Source of the DNA: a virus
Length of the DNA stretch: 44,759 bases
Direction: 5' to 3' (one strand)
IMG/VR virus record: IMGVR_UViG_3300032030_000143
Positions 177-25,079 of this stretch are shown one piece after another. Every line of letters starts with the position of its first letter. Positions within the stretch are counted from its first letter, which is position 1. The position numbers and the translations under genes are program-made. The notes under the pieces are model-generated. The model saw only the letters and a list, made by a program, of their open reading frames with translations. It was not told where the DNA came from and did no database searches.

Positions 177-243
177 AAAAGGGGCTTGACAAGACACCGC
201 TTTTATGATACAATACCAGTAGAAACAGAAAAGGAGAAAAAAA

Positions 244-737: not shown

Positions 738-860
738 CCCTTGGATGGGCCTCTAATCGGGTAGGCCATTAGCTATGGAGATTAGCCTACGATCACAAAG
801 CAATGCCGATGGGGGTCAATCCAAGGGCAAAAAATTTTTCAAGAAATTTTGAAAAACCCC

Positions 861-889
861 TTGACAAATGCCCGGGCATTTGCTATAAT
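861..889 (+). promoter_or_regulatory. consensus sigma70-type promoter (TTGACA-17-TGCTATAAT) with palindrome AAATGCCCGGGCATTT filling the spacer
   Basis: Exact -35 and extended -10 elements; same design at 1877-1915. Confidence 0.6.
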
Positions 890-923
890 ACAATCACAAA
901 GAGAAAACAAGGAGGAAAACAAA

Positions 924-1037
924 ATGATGAATAGTGATTACTGGGAAGTCCACGAGGCCGAATGGCTCGCCGCTCAGGAGTGCATGGAATGGCTCCTGTT
1001 TGAGGCCGATATGGCTACTGACCCCTACCGGGATTAA
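924..1037 (+). CDS. small hypothetical protein (37 aa)
   Basis: Start at second in-frame ATG after AAGGAGG RBS. The track ORF start at 849 would include the promoter itself. Confidence 0.5.
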   Translation: MMNSDYWEVHEAEWLAAQECMEWLLFEADMATDPYRD

Positions 1038-1116
1038 AACCCGGTAGGGAGAAAATACTTGACAAGTCCAAAAGTGTATGATATAATTAAGGCACGAAAA
1101 CAAAGGAGATAAAAAA

Positions 1117-1428
1117 ATGAGAACTTGTAAAAATTGCGGTTGCTATCTTCCCGATAATTGGATTACTTGCCCCGCATGTTTTACCAATATAAATGAACAG
1201 CAAGAAACAAAAAAGGTGGTTTATAAAGAGACTAAACCGCGCTTTACTGTTTGTCGTGTTGACCTCTATCTTAAAAATAATACTAAATCTTCTAACCTTT
1301 TTGCTTCCTATGATAACGCTGTTAAATTTGCCCATCACATGGCCTGCCGTGCTGATGCTGCTGTCGTTGTTGTAACTGATGTCCCCAGTGGGAAAATAAT
1401 TGAAAAATTTTCTCGTAAAGGGTATTGA
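1117..1428 (+). CDS. zinc-ribbon hypothetical protein
   Basis: ORF track; promoter at 1058-1088; AAGGAGAT RBS; N-terminal CxxC..CxxC. Confidence 0.7.
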   Translation: MRTCKNCGCYLPDNWITCPACFTNINEQQETKKVVYKETKPRFTVCRVDLYLKNNTKSSNLFASYDNAVKFAHHMACRADAAVVVVTDVPSGKIIEKFSRKGY

Positions 1429-1485
1429 CAAATCTAAAATTGTATGGTATAATGTAGTTACAAAAGGAAAAAGGAGATAAGAAAA

Positions 1486-1626
1486 ATGTACGAATACGAA
1501 ATCCGCTATCTGGCAACTGGTGAGACTGATTTCCTGTATGGATATTCTCGTCAGGATTTAGCAAGACGCTATCCCGAAATCCCGACCAATACTTATGTCA
1601 TCGTCTACCGCGAGTACATCGACTGA
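1486..1626 (+). CDS. small hypothetical protein (46 aa)
   Basis: TTGACA..TATAAT promoter at 1426-1452; AAGGAGAT RBS; ATG..TGA. Confidence 0.5.
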   Translation: MYEYEIRYLATGETDFLYGYSRQDLARRYPEIPTNTYVIVYREYID

Positions 1627-1942
1627 TTACTCGCGGTTTTCTATTCATTTTTTTAGAATGGTTATGCATTGTATAAGCATACATTATAAATGAATTTTAT
1701 ACGGGCCATTTTTGGCGCGCCGCTCCTGGTCGATGCGGCGCGTTTTTCGCTGTAATAATTATGCCACAATTTTGTCATCAATTTGTAATACATTCGCGCA
1801 AACAGGCAAAGTCCCGAAATGAATAATTATACAATGAATAATGAATAAAAATTCAAAAAAAAAATAAAAAAAAGTGTTGACAAATGCCCGGGCATCTGCT
1901 ATAATCATAGACAGAAAGGGACAAGAAAAGGAGATAAAGAAA

Positions 1943-2377
1943 ATGTACGCTATCACCTATACTAATATTGTTCACTGCAAAAAGTCCGGCGATACCGCCC
2001 AGCAGACCGCAAACTTCTATCACACTGGACGGACTGAAAGACACGATGATCGCCCGTGGTATGAGGGGAGCGACATTGCAGAAATCGCCGCAAGCGTCAA
2101 GTCTAATGGTTTCAGCCTTGCCGATGGCCGCACCAATCATGGTGACACGCTGGAAGAAAAATGGAACGACTTCCGCACTCGTACCGCTTCCAATCTCTTT
2201 ATTTATGTAACAAATGACTTTATCGGCTATTACATGACGATCGAAGAGTTCGAAGAGTTTGTAAAAATGTGGTGCTATGTTAGCACAGAATCCGCAAAAA
2301 ACGGTGGACGGTCTAAGATTAGATGCAAGCATGAGAGCCAAAAAATGCGGAATTGGTTAGCTCACAGGGCGGGATAA
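1943..2377 (+). CDS. hypothetical protein, paralog family A (144 aa)
   Basis: ORF track frame, start set at the ATG after the AAGGAGAT RBS; promoter at 1877-1915; paralogous to 4698-5153 (shared ...EFE.FVK..C... and C-terminal W.AH). Confidence 0.7.
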   Translation: MYAITYTNIVHCKKSGDTAQQTANFYHTGRTERHDDRPWYEGSDIAEIAASVKSNGFSLADGRTNHGDTLEEKWNDFRTRTASNLFIYVTNDFIGYYMTIEEFEEFVKMWCYVSTESAKNGGRSKIRCKHESQKMRNWLAHRAG

Positions 2378-2405
2378 AAAAACCCGCCCAAAATGAAAAA
2401 AAGTT

Positions 2406-2434
2406 CTTGACAAATCCGGATTTGTAGTGTATAA
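2406..2434 (+). promoter_or_regulatory. consensus promoter with palindrome CAAATCCGGATTTG in the spacer
   Basis: TTGACA-17-TATAAT; the palindrome fills the spacer; a near-copy lies at 2666-2694. Confidence 0.55.
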
Positions 2435-2485
2435 TCCTAAGTGTAAAGGGGTTAAGGAAAACCCCAAGAGAAAGGAGAAAAGACA

Positions 2486-2656
2486 ATGTTCTTTGAAATC
2501 GTTGAAATTACTGAAACTGCATGGGGCGATGACGATATTATTCGTGGCCGCTTTGATACTCTTGCCGAAGCCGAAGCTTTTATCGCTGAGACTTATGGCG
2601 ATGATGTGGACGATATTTATGTACAGGATTCCACTGGAGAAGTTGTCTGGGGCTGA
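2486..2656 (+). CDS. small acidic hypothetical protein (56 aa)
   Basis: Promoter at 2406-2434; AAGGAGAAAAG RBS; ATG..TGA. Confidence 0.5.
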   Translation: MFFEIVEITETAWGDDDIIRGRFDTLAEAEAFIAETYGDDVDDIYVQDSTGEVVWG

Positions 2657-2735
2657 AAAAAAGTTCTTGACAAATCAGGATTTGTAGTGTATAATCCTAA
2701 GTGTAAAGAAGAGATACGAAAGGAAGTAAAAAAAA

Positions 2736-2954: not shown

Positions 2955-3320
2955 GGGACTTGAATAAAGTCCCATTTTTTTTGACTATTTATTCAATACA
3001 TAAATATTCATTCTGGATGAAACTTTATACGATTTTTTTGGCGCGCCGCTCCTGGTCGATGCGGCGCGTTCTCATTATAACACACGCGGCAGAAAAAGTC
3101 AATAGGCAAAATGCACAAAATTTTTGATGCTGGTAAATCCCGAAAATTCCTTTGTGCAAAGTGACGAATCGCTCAAAAATTGAAAAAAACTCTTGCAATC
3201 TGCGTTATAGTATGGTATTATAACAGTGTCAGGAGGGGTTGACTTGTCCCCCTCAAAACCGGCCCGGGCGGTCTCCGGGGATGCCGACACAAGGGCAATA
3301 AAAAAATGGAGGTACTGACT

Positions 3321-3748: not shown

Positions 3749-3807
3749 AAAAAATTAAAAAAGGGGCTTGACAAACCCCTACAAATCTGATATAATCCAT
3801 AGTGTCA

Positions 3808-9332: not shown

Positions 9333-9602
9333 ATGAAAACAACTGGAATTGTGCGGCGTGTAGATGACCTTGGTCGTATCGTTATCCCCAAAGAAATTCG
9401 GCGGACTCTCCACATTAAAGAGGGCGATCCCCTTGAAATCTATGTTGATGACAATGCGGTGTGTTTCAAAAATTATAAATATCAGGCAGTAGAGGATGCT
9501 TGTAAAGAAGTCCTTAATGCTTCTGCTGATTTAGTCAATGTTGAACAGCGCGATGCAATTGCGGCACATCTCAAAGCAATTCGAGAATTAATTTTTGAGT
9601 AA
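9333..9602 (+). CDS. AbrB/SpoVT-family (swapped-hairpin) transcriptional regulator
   Basis: N-terminus MKTTGIVRRVDDLGRIVIPKEIRRTLHIKEGDPLEIYVDD closely matches the AbrB N-domain MKSTGIVRKVDELGRVVIPIELRRTLGI..LEIYVDD; AGGAGAAAAAAA RBS. Confidence 0.75.
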   Translation: MKTTGIVRRVDDLGRIVIPKEIRRTLHIKEGDPLEIYVDDNAVCFKNYKYQAVEDACKEVLNASADLVNVEQRDAIAAHLKAIRELIFE

Positions 9603-11149: not shown

Positions 11150-11368
11150 ATGAACGATAAGATTACTTATAGTATTGTTGAGGAAATTGCTGTTCTCTCT
11201 ACCCGCGGCGGTTGGGCTCTTGAGCTCAATCGTGTGGCATGGAATGGCGGTCAGCCTAAGTACGACATTCGTTCATGGAACGAAGATCACACCCGGATGG
11301 GCAAGGGGGTCACTCTCAACGATGATGAGATGAACGCCCTGCTTGATGCGATGGCGGCAAGGGATTAA
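11150..11368 (+). CDS. PC4/YdbC-like putative ssDNA-binding protein (tentative)
   Basis: AAGGAGG RBS; motif ..ELNRVAWNGGQPKYDIRSWNEDH..GKGVTL..EM..L recalls bacterial PC4-like (YdbC) proteins, from memory only. Confidence 0.5.
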   Translation: MNDKITYSIVEEIAVLSTRGGWALELNRVAWNGGQPKYDIRSWNEDHTRMGKGVTLNDDEMNALLDAMAARD

Positions 11369-12786: not shown

Positions 12787-13077
12787 ATGAATGAAATGAC
12801 TAAACTTGCCGCTCTTTTGGAGCAGGCCCATGTTCCCTTTGAAATGCGTGACCATTGGTCTGATACTAAGCAGATTTGTTATCCGAACTGCGAAAATGTA
12901 GTCTGTGATGCTGTCTGCTTCCCCGGCTCCTATGGTTATTCAGATGGACTTCTGGAAATCATGGGTCTTGTAGATGAAGAAGAAACCGGCGATACTGTCG
13001 AGGGCTGGCTTTCTGCGGATGAAGTTTTCCAGCGTATCTATCATCATTATCGTGGTTGGGAGCCTCAAGTTACTTGA
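12787..13077 (+). CDS. hypothetical protein (96 aa)
   Basis: ORF track; TAGGAGGAAAAA RBS; terminator hairpin at 13063-13080. Confidence 0.65.
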   Translation: MNEMTKLAALLEQAHVPFEMRDHWSDTKQICYPNCENVVCDAVCFPGSYGYSDGLLEIMGLVDEEETGDTVEGWLSADEVFQRIYHHYRGWEPQVT

Positions 13078-13170
13078 GGCTAACCGCCCGGGCGAATTGT
13101 TAAATAAATAACTATTAAAAAAAGGTATTGACTTTCCGCCAAAAGAGAGTATAATAATAATTGTCAAGGG

Positions 13171-13450
13171 GGACAGCGGAAGACCACCGCGATACAAGTG
13201 TCTCAAAAGGTTATGGCGCCGACCGGAAAAAATAAAATTCCTCCTTGACAAGCCACACAGACTGTGGTATAATGAATACAGTCAAGAGGGCGGAACACCG
13301 TAGGCAGTAAGTCCCATACGACTAATAAAAAATTCAGTCAATGGCAATAAGTCCCTACGAACCGGAAAAATTTTTCAAAGAAATTTGAAAAACCCTCTTG
13401 ACAAACCCCACAGCCTGTGCTATAATAAGTATGTAAGGTAAAGGAAACCT
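13171..13450 (+). ncRNA. array I of short promoter-driven non-coding transcripts (3 consensus promoters, no ORF or RBS)
   Basis: Promoters at 13126-13170, 13236-13272 and 13403-13437, each followed by 60-110 nt of structured, ORF-less sequence. Confidence 0.35.
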
Positions 13451-13518
13451 AATGGAGCCTTGTCCTACTAAAAGGCTTTAGAATCTGGTAGGTAAATCTT
13501 TTGAAAGAGGTAGATACT

Positions 13519-13944
13519 ATGTCTCGTAAGCTGTCCTATGTTTCTGCGATTGATTTCGCTCTGTCCGTCCTGTCCCAGATTGACGCCGCTCAGGTGGCTA
13601 TCCCCGCCGAGGGTGAGGATGACGCGCCCATTTCTGTCGGTGAGGTTGTCGAAAAGATGACCGCTCTGCGTGAAGCGCAGATGAAGCGCTCCACTTCTAA
13701 GAAGGCCGAGGGTGAGTCCAAGACCCACAAGGCCAATGTTGAGCTGGCCGAGAAGATCTATGCCGCTATGGTGGCGGGTGAGGTTTACGATAACAAGGGC
13801 ATTAAGGCTCTTGTCCCGGAGCTGGTTGACGCCACTCCGCAGAAGCTGGCTCCTATCATGGCCTGTCTCAAGGGCCGTGTTACCGCCACTAAGGTGAAGG
13901 GCCGGGTGTCTTACATTCTGGCCCAGCCCGAAGCCGCAGAGTAA
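13519..13944 (+). CDS. hypothetical protein, paralog family B (141 aa)
   Basis: ORF track frame, start at the ATG after the AGAGGTAG RBS; conserved structured 5' leader at 13454-13518; canonical terminator at 13948-13980. Confidence 0.7.
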   Translation: MSRKLSYVSAIDFALSVLSQIDAAQVAIPAEGEDDAPISVGEVVEKMTALREAQMKRSTSKKAEGESKTHKANVELAEKIYAAMVAGEVYDNKGIKALVPELVDATPQKLAPIMACLKGRVTATKVKGRVSYILAQPEAAE

Positions 13945-14780: not shown

Positions 14781-15051
14781 TACAGGGGAGGGGGAGTTAG
14801 CTCCCCCTAACCGCCCGGGCGCTTTGTTAAAGAAATAACTTTCAGAAACCTCTTGACTTTTTATTAAAAGAGAGTATAATAATAATTGTCAGGGGGCAAG
14901 AGAATTGATAAAGTAGGGACAGCCCCAAAGTGAGGATTGCTGAATGACCTTGCTTGAAAAATTTTCAAAGAAATTTGAAAATCCCCTTGACAAGAAAGAA
15001 AAGGCATGATATAATAAAAGCACAAAGAAAGAAAAAAGGAGATAAAAAAAA

Positions 15052-18633: not shown

Positions 18634-18771
18634 TCGGTAATCGCCCGGGCGCAAGATTGTTAAATAAATAACAATAAAAAACTATCTTGACTTTTTCAAA
18701 TTTTATGCTATACTATAATTGTTGATGCGGGAAAAGAAGTTAAGCCCCATCACAGAAAGGAAAAATATACT

Positions 18772-20226: not shown

Positions 20227-20325
20227 TTCCTCATTCGCCCGGGCGCCAGATTGTTAAATAAATAACTATTAAAAAAGGTATTGACTTTTCGCTAAAAGAG
20301 AGTATAATAATAATTGTTAAGGGGA

Positions 20326-20590
20326 GGGGCTCCCAAAAAAACAAAATCGCCTGTGGGATTTAACTGGCGACCTGATAAAAAAAATTCTTGAAACAAAGAA
20401 AAACCCCTTGACAAGCTCCACTTAATGTGGTATAATGAATACAGTTAAGAGGGCGGTGGAAACCACGATACGCACCGTTTGTGCTGATGAAAGAAACAAG
20501 CCCGAAAAAAATTTCAAAGAAATTTGAAATCCCTCTTGACAAACCCCACAAGCTGTGGTACAATAAGTATGTAAGGTAAAGAGAAAACGA
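20326..20590 (+). ncRNA. array II of short promoter-driven non-coding transcripts
   Basis: Consensus promoters at 20281-20325, 20406-20442 and 20540-20575 with no ORFs or RBS between them. Confidence 0.35.
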
Positions 20591-20657
20591 ACGGAGCCTT
20601 GTCCTACTAAAAGGCTTTAGAATCTGGTAGGTAAATCTTTTGAAAGAGGTAGATACT

Positions 20658-21047
20658 ATGGCTAATTCTGCTACTGATCGCAAGCCCACCAAGCGTGACC
20701 ACTTCAATCGGCTTTACACCATCGTGCAGGAGGGTTCTTATCCCGATGCTGACGAGCTGATGGGCTTTATTGAGCACGAGCTGGAACTGCTCGATAAGAA
20801 GAACTCCGGTGAGAAGAAGCCCACCGCCAAGCAGGTCGCTAATGCGGCTCTGGGTGAGGCCATTATCGGCTGGATGGAGCCCAATACCCTCTATCTGTCT
20901 GCCGAGGTTGCCAAGACTTGCCCCGCTGTCATTGACGCGGGTGCTACTCAGGGCACTGTCACCGCTATCTTGACCCAGCTTTACAAGGCTGGCAAGATTG
21001 TCCGTACCGAGGACAAGCGCAAGAACTATTACTCTCTCGCAGAGTAA
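20658..21047 (+). CDS. hypothetical protein, paralog family B (129 aa)
   Basis: ORF track frame, start at MANSATDRKPTKRD; conserved leader at 20594-20657. Confidence 0.7.
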   Translation: MANSATDRKPTKRDHFNRLYTIVQEGSYPDADELMGFIEHELELLDKKNSGEKKPTAKQVANAALGEAIIGWMEPNTLYLSAEVAKTCPAVIDAGATQGTVTAILTQLYKAGKIVRTEDKRKNYYSLAE

Positions 21048-21164: not shown

Positions 21165-21310
21165 CTAATTTCCCATCTCCTTTCTGTCTTTTGGCGGTTC
21201 CTACCCTATGGGTAGGAATTGCGCCCGGGCGAATTGTTAAATAAATAACTATTAAAAAAGGTATTGACTTTTCGCCAAAAGAGAGTATAATAATAATTGT
21301 CAAGGGGAGA

Positions 21311-21909
21311 AAGAAAACAACCTCTCTCAGGCGTGTAACCTGATGTAAGTAAAATCAAATCTCTTCAAAAAAATGGAAAAACCCCTTGACAGACTCACAG
21401 GTTTGTGATATAATGGATACAGTCAAGAGGGAGAGCCGAGAGTTGAAAAACATCGCCAAGGCTCGAAAAAAAATAAAAAAAATCTCCAAAACCCTCTTGA
21501 CAAGACCACGAACCTGTGGTATAATGATTATGCCATCTACCCATCTGCGTAGGGTAGTGAGGGGGACGCAGACCCCAAGAAGCGAGCAACGGCTTACAGA
21601 GAGCGCTGGACTCCGCGCCCATCGAGGCGGGAAGTGCTGGTAGAGCAGGGGACACCAGACGCCAGAACACAAGGGCATGTGGAATGGCAACACTTTTCCT
21701 GTATTGATTTGTCGGTTTTTAAGTAAACCTTCCGCAGTTTTGGACTGTTATAAGTTCTGCGTAAATAAAAACTTGCAAAAGAAATGGGTAAAGGCGTTGA
21801 GCGTGTATGTCTACCCCATTAAAAACGCTACAAAGGGTTTTACGGCAGGAGACCTATATAGGGGTGAGAAACCTATTCCCCTAATTTATAAGCGCGTGTA
21901 ACTTAAAAT
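21311..21909 (+). ncRNA. array III: short transcripts plus about 380 nt of GC-rich non-coding leader preceding the tRNAs
   Basis: Promoters at 21265-21310, 21378-21412 and 21496-21530. Track ORFs in this stretch overlap on both strands and lack RBS. Confidence 0.3.
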
Positions 21910-22079: not shown

Positions 22080-22232
22080 CTCTCCTTTCTTTCCCTCCTT
22101 TCTCTTTCGGGCTCTACCACTTTAATGTGGTAGAGTTCCCGCCCGGGCGATTTGTTAATGTTTTAACACAGCTTGACAGGAAGAAAGAAAGATGCTATAA
22201 TATAATCACCAAAAGGAAAGGATTTTGAACAA

Positions 22233-23820: not shown

Positions 23821-23930
23821 GGGGAGTTAATCTTCCCTAACCGCCCGGGCGGATTGTTAAATAAATAACTTTTAAAAAAGGTATTGACTTTTCTGTAAAA
23901 ACGAGTATAATAATAATTGTTAAGGGGAGC

Positions 23931-24335
23931 GGTAAAGAGTGAGAACAAGCGCTGACCGCGAAAAAAAATAAACTATACTAGGATGGGAAAACCCCTTGAC
24001 AAGTCCCACAAAGTGTGGTATAATAAAGATGTTGATAGGGAAGAGCCGAGCAAGGACGCAATTTGGACGGTGCGCGCGTGAAAAGCTACTGCCTATGGCT
24101 CAATAAAAAAAATAAAAATATTTCCTAAACCCTATTGACAAAACCACATGCCTGTGGTATAATAAGTATGTAAATAAGGGCGAGCAGGTTGAGTAGCCCC
24201 CCTAGGGGGCAAAAGTTAAATGGGGGGTTCGATTCCCCCCACGCCCCCAAAAAAAATAAAAATGGTCTTGACAAAAGCTTAAACCTATGATATAATAAGT
24301 ATGTAAGCAAGAGGGAGTTGAAAATCCCCTGCTAA
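23931..24335 (+). ncRNA. array IV of short promoter-driven transcripts, including a tRNA-like element
   Basis: Promoters at 23884-23930, 23996-24032, 24133-24168 and 24269-24300 with no ORFs. Confidence 0.35.
24178..24249 (+). ncRNA. tRNA-like element without a D-arm, carrying a CUA-containing GC hairpin
   Basis: Acceptor-like pairing GGGCGAG/CACGCCC (6 of 7 bp); canonical T-arm GGGGGG-TTCGATT-CCCCCC; GC hairpin GCCCC-CCCTAGG-GGGGC with CTA at 24202-24204; own promoter. Confidence 0.35.
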
Positions 24336-24401
24336 TAAAAGCCTTGTCCTACTAAAAGGCTTTAGAATCTGGTAGGTAAAAAAACGAAAGAGGTAGATAC
24401 T

Positions 24402-24782
24402 ATGGCTAATTCTGCTACTGATCGCAAGCCCACCAAGCGTGACCGCTTCAACGAACTGCTCGGCATTCCCGCCGTGGCTGAGAATGAGGATCTGGTTGAG
24501 TTTATCAATCACGAGATTGAACTGCTCGACAAGAAGAACACCGCGGAGCGGAAGCCCACTGCTAAGCAGGTCGCTAATGAGGGGTATAAGGCAGCCATTC
24601 TCGGCTGGATGGAGCCTAACCACCTGTATCTGGCGGCTGAGATCGTCAAGGGGTGTCCCACTATTGTGGAAAACGGTGTCACCGCTGGCACTGTGACCGC
24701 CCTGCTGACCCAGCTTTATAAGGCTGGCAAGATTGTCCGCACTGAGGACAAGCGCAAGAATTATTACTCCCTTGCGGAGTAA
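24402..24782 (+). CDS. hypothetical protein, paralog family B (126 aa)
   Basis: ORF track; conserved leader at 24336-24401; about 70% identical to 20658-21047. Confidence 0.7.
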   Translation: MANSATDRKPTKRDRFNELLGIPAVAENEDLVEFINHEIELLDKKNTAERKPTAKQVANEGYKAAILGWMEPNHLYLAAEIVKGCPTIVENGVTAGTVTALLTQLYKAGKIVRTEDKRKNYYSLAE

Positions 24783-24897: not shown

Positions 24898-25079
24898 CTA
24901 CTTCTCTTTTTAGTCTCCTTTCTTTCTCTCCTTTCTTTTTCCCCCTTTGTGGGACTCTACCACTTTAATGTGGTAGAGTCTCCGCCCGGGCACTTTGTTA
25001 AAACCTTAACAAAATAAACCGCTTGACATAATTCCAATAGTATGTTATAATTTTTATAGTAAAAAATAAGGAGCGTTAA

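What the first reader, a model, noticed from the sequence alone, without database searches (positions are those of the whole stretch)
861..2694. Perfect palindromes occupying promoter spacers (operators built into promoters)
AAATGCCCGGGCATTT fills the 17-bp spacer of the promoters at 861-889 and 1877-1915. CAAATCCGGATTTG fills the spacers at 2406-2434 and 2666-2694. CCACAnnnTGTGG fills those of the sRNA-array promoters. A repressor bound there would occlude RNA polymerase. The GCCCGGGC core is the same as in the intergenic cassette.
Basis: seen in the sequence. Interest (0 to 1): 0.55.

Follow-up and report, generated by a model that had tools for sequence, protein, structure and literature searches.

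The report
GCCCGGGC motif inside phage promoter spacers
Of the "palindromic operators" seen inside strong early promoters of this large phage, only an 8-base motif, GCCCGGGC, is really conserved; it marks more than 30 gene boundaries and may be a protein binding site, while the longer palindromes are mostly by-products of the promoter consensus.

Summary
The palindromes exist, but only two of the four are perfect: 864-881 (18 bp) and 2411-2424 (14 bp). The copies at 1882-1897 and 2671-2684 each have one mismatch. By raw count, spacer palindromes are enriched in the window (11 promoters with arms of at least 5 bp against 3.2 expected). They collapse into three paralogous families, and 221 non-redundant spacers from 37 related loci show no excess dyad symmetry.

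- **GCCCGGGC:** This core is under selection. It occurs 32 times against 0.1 expected, and 30 of 30 copies are intact in a relative whose flanks are 92% identical. The AAAT/ATTT arms around it are no more complementary than chance. They come from the promoter consensus (TTGACAAAT, and ATYTG before the -10).
- **CAAATCCGGATTTG:** It decays without compensation among 11 orthologous variants.
- **CCACA..TGTGG:** It recurs more than chance predicts, but its right arm is the TRTG -16 promoter element and the arm spacing varies.

None of these palindromes forms a stable hairpin. GCCCGGGC in a spacer could act as an operator. Its usual position, though, is right after a gene-end hairpin and just before a Rex-box-like palindrome upstream of the next promoter. 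No binding protein was identified. The reading is partly supported and of moderate interest.

The parts
861..889 (+). Promoter P861 (TTGACA-N17-TATAAT, extended -10 TG). It drives the 37-aa ORF at 924-1037.
864..881 (.). Perfect 18-bp palindrome CAAATGCCCGGGCATTTG. It runs from the CA of the -35 hexamer to the TG of the extended -10.
   Evidence: Orthologs carry 20-bp (L255), 18-bp and 10-bp (L002, L277) versions.
870..877 (.). GCCCGGGC core at spacer positions 4-11. This is the conserved unit.
1877..1905 (+). Promoter P1877. It drives the 144-aa ORF at 1943-2377. It is also the junction of a cassette indel relative to L255.
1886..1893 (.). GCCCGGGC core in the P1877 spacer. The flanking arms are imperfect (AAAT/ATCT) and become AAAC/ATCT in orthologs.
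2407..2435 (+). Promoter P2407 (no extended -10 TG). It drives the 56-aa ORF at 2486-2656.
2411..2424 (.). Perfect 14-bp palindrome CAAATCCGGATTTG. It is not conserved in orthologs.
2667..2695 (+). Promoter P2667, a paralog of P2407. It drives the 72-aa ORF at 2736-2954.
2671..2684 (.). Imperfect copy CAAATCAGGATTTG (6 of 7 pairs).
13256..13266 (.). CACAGaCTGTG inverted repeat in the spacer of array promoter 13245-13273.
13409..13419 (.). CACAGcCTGTG inverted repeat in the spacer of promoter 13398-13426.
20418..20430 (.). CCACttaatGTGG in the spacer of promoter 20408-20436.
20546..20558 (.). CCACAagcTGTGG in the spacer of promoter 20536-20564.
21395..21408 (.). TCACAggttTGTGA in the spacer of promoter 21386-21414. 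Both arms differ from CCACA/TGTGG, so the change is compensated.
21506..21519 (.). CCACgaacctGTGG in the spacer of promoter 21497-21525.
24006..24018 (.). CCACAaagTGTGG in the spacer of promoter 23996-24024.
24144..24157 (.). CCACAtgccTGTGG in the spacer of promoter 24135-24163.
13061..13155 (+). Typical intergenic cassette, shown for comparison: gene-end hairpin 13061-13081, GCCCGGGC 13086-13093, Rex-box-like TTGTTAAATAAATAACTA 13097-13114, A-tract, promoter 13128-13155.
24995..25012 (.). Perfect TTGTTAA-N4-TTAACAA (clostridial Rex-box consensus). It starts 3 nt after GCCCGGGC (24984-24991) and 28 nt before the -35 at 25023.

Best explanation
**The flagged palindromes are three different things.**

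**1. P861 and P1877.** The selected element is only the 8-bp palindrome GCCCGGGC. This motif is dispersed through the intergenic DNA of the early region of this jumbo-phage clade.
- It most likely works at the level of double-stranded DNA, as the recognition site of a symmetric (dimeric) protein. That protein could be phage-encoded or from the host, and it is not identified.
- In a minority of promoters, clustered at the upstream end of the early region, the motif sits in the spacer at about -26 to -19. A bound protein there would block sigma-A RNA polymerase, so in those promoters it would act as an operator.
- In most copies it sits directly after a gene-end hairpin and 20-60 bp before the next -35. 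There the same protein would mark or insulate transcription-unit boundaries.
- The longer AAAT...ATTT arms are incidental. They come from the promoter consensus, which is TTGACAAAT after the -35 and ATYTG before the -10.

**2. CAAATCCGGATTTG.** This is a fortuitous, non-conserved palindrome in a fast-evolving spacer.

**3. CCACA..TGTGG.** This is a lineage-limited inverted repeat. Its right arm is the TRTG -16 element. Its function is unresolved.

**Shown versus inferred.**
- Shown: motif enrichment, conservation and positions; the lack of selection on the outer arms; and the weak hairpin energies.
- Inferred: protein binding and repression.
For: **Enrichment and conservation.**
- GCCCGGGC occurs 32 times against 0.11 expected, and every copy lies within 870-27815.
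- 30 of 30 alignable copies are intact in the 239-kb relative, whose flanks are 92% identical. The chance of that under neutrality is about 2e-9.
- CCGGGC is the top GC-only 6-mer in all relatives that share only 35-65% protein identity.

**DNA-level recognition.** An 8-mer palindrome cannot fold on its own, and only 1 in 256 8-mers is palindromic. Both points favour recognition of double-stranded DNA.

**Copies inside spacers.**
- They recur in 75 of 600 unique family promoters, at spacer positions 2, 4 and 5. These positions leave the -35 hexamer and the TRTG element untouched.
- They cluster at the upstream end: 10 of 31 against 0 of 22 promoters in L255 (P = 0.003), and 2 of 6 against 0 of 59 in the window (P = 0.007).

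**Outer arms not selected.** 38 of 81 pairs are complementary against 36.5 expected.

**Promoter consensus accounts for the arms.** A1 occurs in 34 of 48 promoters, T13 in 38, T15 in 43 and G16 in 40.

**Hairpins are weak.** Spacer hairpins fold at -3.5 to -7.2 kcal/mol, with z between -1.2 and +1.0.

**Precedent.** One repressor motif that serves both as a promoter operator and as dispersed intergenic sites is known from mycobacteriophage L5 (PMC9283540).
Against: - No binding protein was identified. Pfam scans of 40 window ORFs found only an AbrB/MazE-like protein and a PC4-like protein, and nothing links either to the motif.
- 26 of 32 copies are tied to an upstream hairpin (gap 0-8 nt) rather than to a promoter. 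Their distance to the -35 is broad, 20-69 bp. The motif's primary role may therefore lie at gene ends or cassette boundaries, not in promoter control.
- Spacer copies might simply reflect compaction of short intergenic regions or cassette shuffling; one search shows one such indel.
- Promoters, transcription starts and the host are all inferred from sequence alone.
Confidence: 0.4

Rival explanations
1. **Cassette-boundary element with no repressor.** GCCCGGGC is part of composite terminator/promoter cassettes of the PeSL type. These cassettes flank small ORFs and mediate modular shuffling. Copies inside spacers are by-products of recombination and intergenic compaction, and the promoters are constitutive early promoters.
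For: - The architecture matches PeSLs: strong sigma-70 consensus promoters, AT-rich upstream DNA, adjacent stem-loops and small ORFans (PMC2839356).
- A hairpin ends 0-8 nt before the motif in 26 of 32 copies.
- L255 carries an extra NT5C-like ORF between two motif-bearing promoters where the window has a single promoter, P1877. The window segment shared by the two flanking alignments is 1885-1925.
- Other breakpoints between the window and L255 also fall at promoters.
- Relatives have strong stem-loops across the -35, GGGGCTTG...CAAGCCCC, at -14 to -18 kcal/mol.
Against: - Homologous recombination needs no strictly conserved 8-mer. Yet the motif is intact in 30 of 30 copies while its flanks drift, and it persists across deep divergence.
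- The motif cannot itself form a stem-loop.
Confidence: 0.28
2. **The reader's model as written.** Each long palindrome (AAATGCCCGGGCATTT, CAAATCCGGATTTG, CCACAnnnTGTGG) is a dedicated operator for its own dimeric repressor.
For: - A raw excess of spacer palindromes in the window.
- The perfect 18-bp palindrome is retained in several close relatives.
- CACA and TGTG are associated, with an odds ratio of about 10 and P = 0.0016.
- One compensated variant, TCACA/TGTGA.
Against: - The outer arms are not complementary beyond chance.
- CAAATCCGGATTTG keeps only 3-6 of 7 pairs in 10 of 11 variants.
- The spacing between the CCACA and TGTGG arms varies by several bp.
- There is no clade-wide dyad excess.
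Confidence: 0.08
3. **Stem-loop attenuators.** The spacer palindromes are stem-loops that attenuate read-through from upstream units. [quoted passage not shown]
For: [quoted passage not shown]
- Few canonical terminators are found in the region.
Against: - The predicted hairpins are weak (-3.5 to -7.2 kcal/mol) and no better than shuffled sequence (z -1.2 to +1.0).
- They lack a U-tract.
- Most in-spacer GCCCGGGC copies have no flanking arms at all.
Confidence: 0.07
4. **Modification or restriction target.** GCCCGGGC (the SrfI site, which contains the SmaI site CCCGGG) is the target of a DNA methyltransferase or nuclease, and its methylation state tunes the promoters.
For: It is an 8-bp GC palindrome of the kind recognised by type II enzymes (established knowledge).
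Against: - It is about 300-fold over-represented and strictly intergenic, which is the opposite of restriction-site avoidance.
- CCCGGG outside the motif occurs about as often as expected: 2 against 3.6 for all CCCGGG.
- No methyltransferase was seen in the window.
Confidence: 0.07
5. **Not a repressor site.** The spacer motif either loads a factor onto RNA polymerase at initiation, as the lambda Q binding element between -35 and -10 does, or it tunes promoter strength intrinsically through a rigid GC block in an otherwise AT-rich spacer.
For: - The position in the spacer matches that of the lambda QBE (own knowledge).
- The promoters keep perfect hexamers and the extended -10, so they look built to fire.
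Against: There is no evidence for a pause element or a Q-like protein, and this reading does not explain the 26 hairpin-adjacent copies.
Confidence: 0.07

Closest known systems
Operator/stoperator system of mycobacteriophage L5 and other Cluster A phages (PMC9283540)
   Same: One short motif occurs in more than 20 copies. Some copies lie in an early promoter (operator). Most lie in short intergenic spaces between genes that are all transcribed in one direction.
   Different: - The L5 sites are 13-bp asymmetric sequences whose orientation follows transcription, and a monomeric HTH plus stoperator-domain repressor of a temperate phage binds them.
- The motif here is an 8-bp perfect palindrome.
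- No repressor was found.
- The phage is a relative of jumbo phages, about 240 kb, with no sign of temperate genes in the window.
PeSLs (promoter-early stem-loops) of T4-type phages phi1/RB49 (PMC2839356, PMC4122927)
   Same: - Arrays of sigma-70 consensus early promoters with AT-rich upstream DNA and adjacent stem-loops, in front of small ORFans.
[quoted passage not shown]
- Indels between close relatives have their junctions in the promoter cassettes.
   Different: - PeSL stem-loops are stable G-tract/C-tract hairpins that terminate transcription. The flagged spacer palindromes are weak.
- PeSLs have no strictly conserved 8-mer and no adjacent Rex-like box.
- The host here looks like a Firmicute, not a Gram-negative bacterium.
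Engineered spacer operators (lacO placed between -35 and -10 of phage T5/T7 A1 promoters)
   Same: A palindromic protein site fills the 17-bp spacer of a consensus phage promoter, so a bound protein excludes RNA polymerase.
   Different: Those constructs are synthetic and use a 17-21 bp operator with a known repressor. Here only 8 bp are conserved and the binder is unknown.
Rex operators (TTGTTAANNNNTTAACAA in clostridia, TTGTGAANNNNTTCACAA elsewhere; PMC5367854, PMC5355995)
   Same: The cassettes carry this 18-bp palindrome next to GCCCGGGC. There are 29 perfect copies in the loci examined, and both consensus forms and hybrid half-sites occur.
   Different: - The boxes are not in promoter spacers. 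They are centred about -56 to -86, upstream of the core promoter, and none lies in 861-2694.
- Binding by Rex is untested.

Membership tests
Repressor operator embedded in a promoter spacer | Dyad-symmetric sequence between the -35 and -10 hexamers | tested here: met
   864-881 is a perfect 18-bp palindrome and 2411-2424 a perfect 14-bp one. 1882-1897 and 2671-2684 each have one mismatch.
Repressor operator embedded in a promoter spacer | Both half-sites conserved or co-varying in orthologous promoters | tested here: not met
   Only the 8-bp core is conserved. The outer arms match the re-pairing null. CAAATCCGGATTTG keeps 3-6 of 7 pairs in 10 of 11 variants.
Repressor operator embedded in a promoter spacer | Cognate DNA-binding protein, with binding and repression shown | not testable with these tools
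   40 window ORFs were scanned against Pfam. Only an AbrB/MazE-like ORF (9333-9602) and a PC4-like ORF were found, and neither is linked to the motif.
L5-type operator/stoperator system | One short motif in many copies, both in promoters and in intergenic gaps | tested here: met
   32 copies: 2 in spacers and about 26 after gene-end hairpins.
L5-type operator/stoperator system | Asymmetric site whose orientation follows the direction of transcription | tested here: not met
   GCCCGGGC is a perfect palindrome and so has no orientation (PMC9283540).
L5-type operator/stoperator system | Phage-encoded HTH plus stoperator-domain immunity repressor; temperate lifestyle | tested here: inconclusive
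   No such protein or integrase was found in the 44.8-kb window. The rest of the roughly 240-kb genome was not examined.
PeSL composite promoter/terminator cassettes | Sigma-70 consensus early promoter with AT-rich upstream region in front of small ORFs | tested here: met
   65 near-consensus promoters on the + strand, most followed by a Shine-Dalgarno sequence and a small ORF.
PeSL composite promoter/terminator cassettes | Stable stem-loop in or next to the promoter that can terminate upstream transcription | tested here: not met
   For the flagged spacers, minimum free energy is -3.5 to -7.2 kcal/mol and z is -1.2 to +1.0. The feature is met by other promoters of the clade: GGGGCTTG..CAAGCCCC at -14 to -18 kcal/mol and the gene-end hairpins.
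PeSL composite promoter/terminator cassettes | Recombination between cassettes creates ORF indels between close relatives | tested here: met
   The extra NT5C-like ORF in L255 lies between two motif-bearing promoters, where the window has the single promoter P1877.
Rex operator | 18-bp TTGT[TG]AA-N4-TT[AC]ACAA palindrome | tested here: not met
   None within 861-2694 or in any spacer. The box is present in cassettes further downstream in the window: 33 matches against 9.8 expected, with a perfect one at 24995-25012.
Type II restriction/modification target | Sites neutral or avoided in phage DNA, without positional preference | tested here: not met
   About 300-fold over-represented, confined to intergenic DNA of the early region.

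The most novel reading that the evidence does not exclude
A clade of jumbo phages of about 240 kb that infect Firmicutes uses a palindromic 8-mer (GCCCGGGC) as a genome-wide control signal, read by one still-unknown dimeric protein. The signal acts as an operator inside the spacers of the first-transcribed early promoters. It acts as a boundary or roadblock element after more than 25 gene-end hairpins. There it is paired with helically phased, Rex-type boxes that could couple early phage transcription to the host's NADH/NAD+ state.
Probability: 0.2. Interest if true: 0.7.

Novelty: new variant of a known kind. Interest (0 to 1): 0.42.

Why it matters
How jumbo phages that depend on the host RNA polymerase schedule and insulate dozens of very strong early promoters is largely unknown.

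A single conserved 8-mer that sits either inside promoter spacers or at gene boundaries would be an easily testable handle on that control. So would an adjacent box identical to the host Rex operator. It could also yield compact, portable regulatory parts for Firmicutes.

The work shows as well that long 'perfect' palindromes in consensus promoters can arise from the promoter consensus itself (CAAAT ... ATTTG). That is a useful caution for sequence-only scans.

Tried and rejected
- **Phage database search.** Megablast of 12 kb against GenBank phages found no match.
- **Broad pattern scans.** Scans of viral contigs with TTGACAN{0,9}GCCCGGGC and ACAAATCNGGATTTG returned mostly unrelated chance hits and used two scans. 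The more specific cassette pattern, a protein-anchored locus and one metagenome scan gave the useful relatives.
- **Literature.** A search for GCCCGGGC in phage papers found nothing relevant.
- **Hairpin or terminator reading.** Rejected for the flagged spacers on folding energies.
- **Lineage-specific variants of the GC core.** I looked for GC-core variants that co-vary between cassette and spacer across lineages. All lineages share the same CCGGGC core, so there is no covariation signal.
- **General dyad symmetry.** Rejected as a design principle of the clade's promoter spacers.
- **Helically phased activator site.** Not supported for GCCCGGGC itself, because small insertions shift it relative to the -35. 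The neighbouring Rex-like box is phased.
- **Integron attC-like core sites.** Considered and dropped, because the sequences do not fit RYYYAAC/GTTRRRY.
- **Regulator search.** Pfam scans for a regulator found no HTH repressor.
Full report
**Context**

- The window is the early region of a large phage.
  - A 780-aa ORF (33212-35554) is about 41% identical to ORFs of 462-735 kb 'uncultured phage' records.
  - The closest relative found is a 239,565-bp viral contig, IMGVR_UViG_3300028805_000039, about 88% identical in DNA.
- The + strand carries 65 sites within one mismatch of TTGACA-N16-18-TATAAT, almost all between 1 and 28 kb. The - strand has one perfect site.
- Most promoters are followed by a strong Shine-Dalgarno sequence and a small ORF, or by a short non-coding unit.
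- The spacer consensus is A1 A2 T3 C-rich(4-6) A-rich(7-11) T13 R14 T15 G16. This includes the TRTG '-16' and extended -10 element typical of Gram-positive promoters (the identification of TRTG rests on my own knowledge).

**Observation**

- The four promoters are real consensus matches at 861-889, 1877-1905, 2407-2435 and 2667-2695.
- The first palindrome is a perfect 18-mer, CAAATGCCCGGGCATTTG (864-881). It runs from the CA of the -35 hexamer to the TG of the extended -10.
- The copy at 1882-1897 has one mismatch.
- CAAATCCGGATTTG is perfect at 2411-2424 and has one mismatch at 2671-2684.
- CCACANNNTGTGG is exact twice. Six further array promoters have 4-5 bp arms with loops of 1-6 nt.

**Is it more than chance?**

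- Counting promoters, yes. Among 48 promoters with 17-bp spacers, 11 have arms of at least 5 bp against 3.2 +/- 1.7 when spacer columns are permuted between promoters. Four have arms of at least 6 bp against 0.6 expected.
- These 11 promoters form only three paralogous families.
- I pooled 476 unique spacers from 37 related loci and reduced them to 221 representatives. No dyad axis showed more complementarity than positional base composition predicts (|z| < 1.6).
- Spacer palindromes are therefore not a general design feature of the clade. Each family has to be judged by its own evolution.

**Family 1: GCCCGGGC**

- *Enrichment.* The 8-mer occurs 32 times (0.11 expected), all between 870 and 27815.
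- *Conservation.* It is intact in 30 of 30 credible alignments to the 239-kb relative, although the aligned flanks are only 92% identical. The expected chance of that is about 2e-9. CCGGGC is also the commonest GC-only hexamer in relatives that share only 35-65% protein identity.
- *The outer arms are not conserved.*
  - Orthologs of P861 read AAT..ATTTGC, AAT..ATTTGT (a 20-bp palindrome) or TTT..ATTTGC (a 10-bp palindrome).
  - Orthologs of P1877 read AAT..ATC, AAC..ATC or AAT..ATT.
  - In 27 unique family promoters with the motif at spacer positions 4-11, 38 of 81 outer pairs are complementary against 36.5 +/- 2.3 after random re-pairing (P = 0.33). Four are fully palindromic against 3.2 expected.
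  - The arms are what the promoter consensus supplies: TTGACAAAT on the left and ATYTG before the -10 on the right. CAAAT and ATTTG happen to be reverse complements.
- *Spacer copies are a real class.*
  - 10 of the first 31 promoters of L255 carry the motif in the spacer, against none of the next 22 (P = 0.003).
  - The window holds the last two of this zone: 2 of its first 6 promoters against 0 of 59 (P = 0.007).
  - Clade-wide, 75 of 600 unique promoters have the motif at spacer position 2, 4 or 5, which leaves the -35 and TRTG free. Position 4 is favoured by my search pattern; position 5 is not.
- *Most copies sit elsewhere.*
  - 26 of 32 window copies lie 0-8 nt after a stable hairpin of variable sequence (-9 to -23 kcal/mol, median z -3.5).
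  - They lie 20-69 bp upstream of the next -35.
  - They are usually followed within 0-4 nt by TTGTTAA-N4-(T/A)TAAC...

**Family 2: CAAATCCGGATTTG**

- P2407 and P2667 are duplicates whose flanks are almost invariant across relatives. The middle of the spacer varies freely.
- Eleven variants were found. All 7 pairs are kept in only one of them, which occurs in the window and two near-identical contigs. The others keep 3-6 pairs, and no change is compensated.
- This palindrome is fortuitous.

**Family 3: CCACA..TGTGG**

- The right arm is T13 G14 T15 G16 plus one base, which is the TRTG element itself.
- The left arm starts at spacer position 3, 4 or 5, so the spacing between the arms varies.
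- Across the clade, CACA in the left part of the spacer is associated with TGTG at positions 13-16. The odds ratio is 8.8 (P = 1e-4) for unique spacers and 10.1 (P = 0.0016) for representatives.
- Compensated variants exist: TCACA/TGTGA at 21395-21408, and apparently CAGA/TCTG in L247 against CACA/TGTG in L094.
- Most members descend from one array-promoter lineage, and promoters with the same downstream leader can lack the repeat.
- The repeat is therefore real, but its function is unresolved. The variable spacing argues against a rigid dimeric repressor.

**Hairpin alternative**

- T4-type phages have PeSL cassettes: consensus early promoters with stem-loops that often lie between the -35 and -10 and that terminate transcription (PMC2839356). 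This is the closest published description of palindromes inside phage early promoters.
- The clade does contain such elements. Examples are GGGGCTTGacaaatCAAGCCCC across the -35 (-14 to -18 kcal/mol) and the gene-end hairpins.
- The flagged spacers fold weakly: -3.5 to -7.2 kcal/mol, z from -1.2 to +1.0 against shuffles. A terminator or attenuator role is not supported for them.
- Cassette shuffling is supported. L255 has an extra NT5C-like ORF between two motif-bearing promoters where the window has only P1877. The two flanking alignments overlap in the window at 1885-1925.

**Most likely mechanism**

- GCCCGGGC cannot fold by itself, is palindromic, and is conserved as an exact 8-mer in non-transcribed or 3'-flanking DNA. 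Recognition of duplex DNA by a symmetric protein is therefore the most economical reading. This step is inference.
- In a spacer, at about -26 to -19 assuming a start 7 nt after the -10, such a protein would exclude RNA polymerase. At gene ends it would mark or insulate unit boundaries.
- Mycobacteriophage L5 is the formal precedent: one repressor motif in the early promoter and in more than 20 intergenic 'stoperators' (PMC9283540). The L5 sites are asymmetric and orientation-dependent, so this is an analogy, not membership.
- No binder was identified. The window encodes an AbrB/MazE-like protein (9333-9602) and a PC4-like protein (11150-11368), with nothing tying them to the motif.

**By-product: Rex-like boxes**

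- The AT-rich palindrome next to the cassette motif equals the clostridial Rex-box consensus TTGTTAANNNNTTAACAA (PMC5367854).
- The window has 33 matches with up to 3 mismatches against 9.8 +/- 3.3 expected, including a perfect one at 24995-25012.
- Across the family loci, the window included, I found 29 perfect boxes. These include the general consensus TTGTGAANNNNTTCACAA, and hybrid half-sites also occur.
- Box-to-(-35) distances cluster at 28-31, 37-39, 48-51 and 60-61 bp, a period of about 10 bp (Rayleigh z 23.7). The boxes are not independent, so this statistic is inflated.
- The best operator-like palindromes of this genome are therefore upstream of the promoters, not in the spacers. None lies in 861-2694.

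**Verdict**

It is plausible only for the 8-bp core and unproven even there.
- The finding is a new variant of known kinds (dispersed phage regulatory motifs and PeSL-like cassettes) and is of moderate interest.

Noticed in passing
window 6663-26741 (e.g. 13097-13114, 18657-18674, 22152-22169, 24995-25012); L247, L094, L106, L068 and others: An 18-bp palindrome identical or close to the Rex operator consensus (TTGTTAA-N4-TTAACAA, and TTGTGAA-N4-TTCACAA in relatives) follows the cassette GCCCGGGC by 0-4 nt. It lies at helically phased distances (about 30, 38, 49 and 60 bp) upstream of early promoters. There are 29 perfect boxes across the family loci.
   Followed up: partly
window, 26 sites from 5161 to 26717 (e.g. 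13061-13093): Stable hairpins of variable sequence (-9 to -23 kcal/mol) end 0-8 nt before GCCCGGGC and have no U-tract. They look like gene-end structures that are not canonical intrinsic terminators.
   Followed up: partly
L255 723, 956, 2449, 3377, 6067, 7833; weaker versions at window 181-191, 368-378, 3763-3773: Composite terminator/promoter elements. A GGGGCTTG...CAAGCCCC stem-loop (-14 to -18 kcal/mol) has the -35 hexamer forming part of its 5' arm and loop, and its 3' arm lies in the spacer. This resembles PeSLs.
   Followed up: partly
L255 9438-9990 versus window 1877-1925: The relative carries an extra NT5C-like ORF between two promoters that both have GCCCGGGC in the spacer, where the window has the single promoter P1877. 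This indicates cassette gain or loss by recombination between promoters.
   Followed up: partly
window 13128-13500, 20281-20650, 21264-21600, 23884-24300: Arrays of non-coding units of about 80-130 nt. Each has its own consensus promoter, the transcripts start with GUCAAG(R)GGG, and the units are separated by A-rich tracts without obvious terminators.
   Followed up: no
window 24178-24249: A tRNA-like element with a T-arm (GGGGGGTTCGATTCCCCCC), a GGGCG/CGCCC acceptor-like stem and a CCA end. It is transcribed from promoter 24135. ARAGORN and Rfam do not call it.
   Followed up: no
window 13458-13496, 20597-20635, 24342-24380: An identical 39-nt leader (CCTTGTCCTACTAAAAGGCTTTAGAATCTGGTAGGTAAA) precedes three ORFs, two of them clear paralogs (13519-13944, 20658-21047, 24402-24782). 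One ORF has a weak PaaX-like winged-helix hit. The leader may be a cis-regulatory RNA.
   Followed up: no
window 33212-35554: A 780-aa protein with Major Vault Protein shoulder and repeat domains (Pfam E = 1.7e-20). It is about 41% identical to ORFs of 462-735 kb uncultured phages.
   Followed up: no
window 7646, 19518, 28414, 28626, 31167, 35601, 38398, 43321: A second promoter class with a nearly invariant A/T spacer (TTGAAA-attttaaaaaaatatta-TATAAT-atttatagaaaa). It dominates the AT-rich right part of the window, where GCCCGGGC is absent, and may be a later temporal class.
   Followed up: no
window 837-854, 13373-13390, 14963-14980, 20512-20529: An AT-only palindrome, TTTCAA(A)GAAATTT(T)GAAA, lies immediately upstream of the -35 of four promoters, including P861.
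   Followed up: no
window 1714-1742 and 3040-3068: A repeated GC-rich hairpin, GGCGCGCCGCTCCTGGTCGATGCGGCGCG, sits inside repeated non-coding modules of about 250 bp. The first copy is followed by a T-run. These are the clearest terminator-like elements in the region.
   Followed up: no
window 9333-9602 and 11150-11368: Two small early ORFs have nucleic-acid-binding folds: AbrB/MazE-like (PF04014, E = 9e-13) and PC4-like (PF02229, E = 2e-9). They are candidate regulators, with nothing linking them to any motif.
   Followed up: partly
window 27808-27882, minus strand: This is the only perfect minus-strand promoter (-35 at 27882). Its short convergent transcript would contain GCCCGGGC (27808-27815) and end at a strong hairpin.
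   Followed up: no
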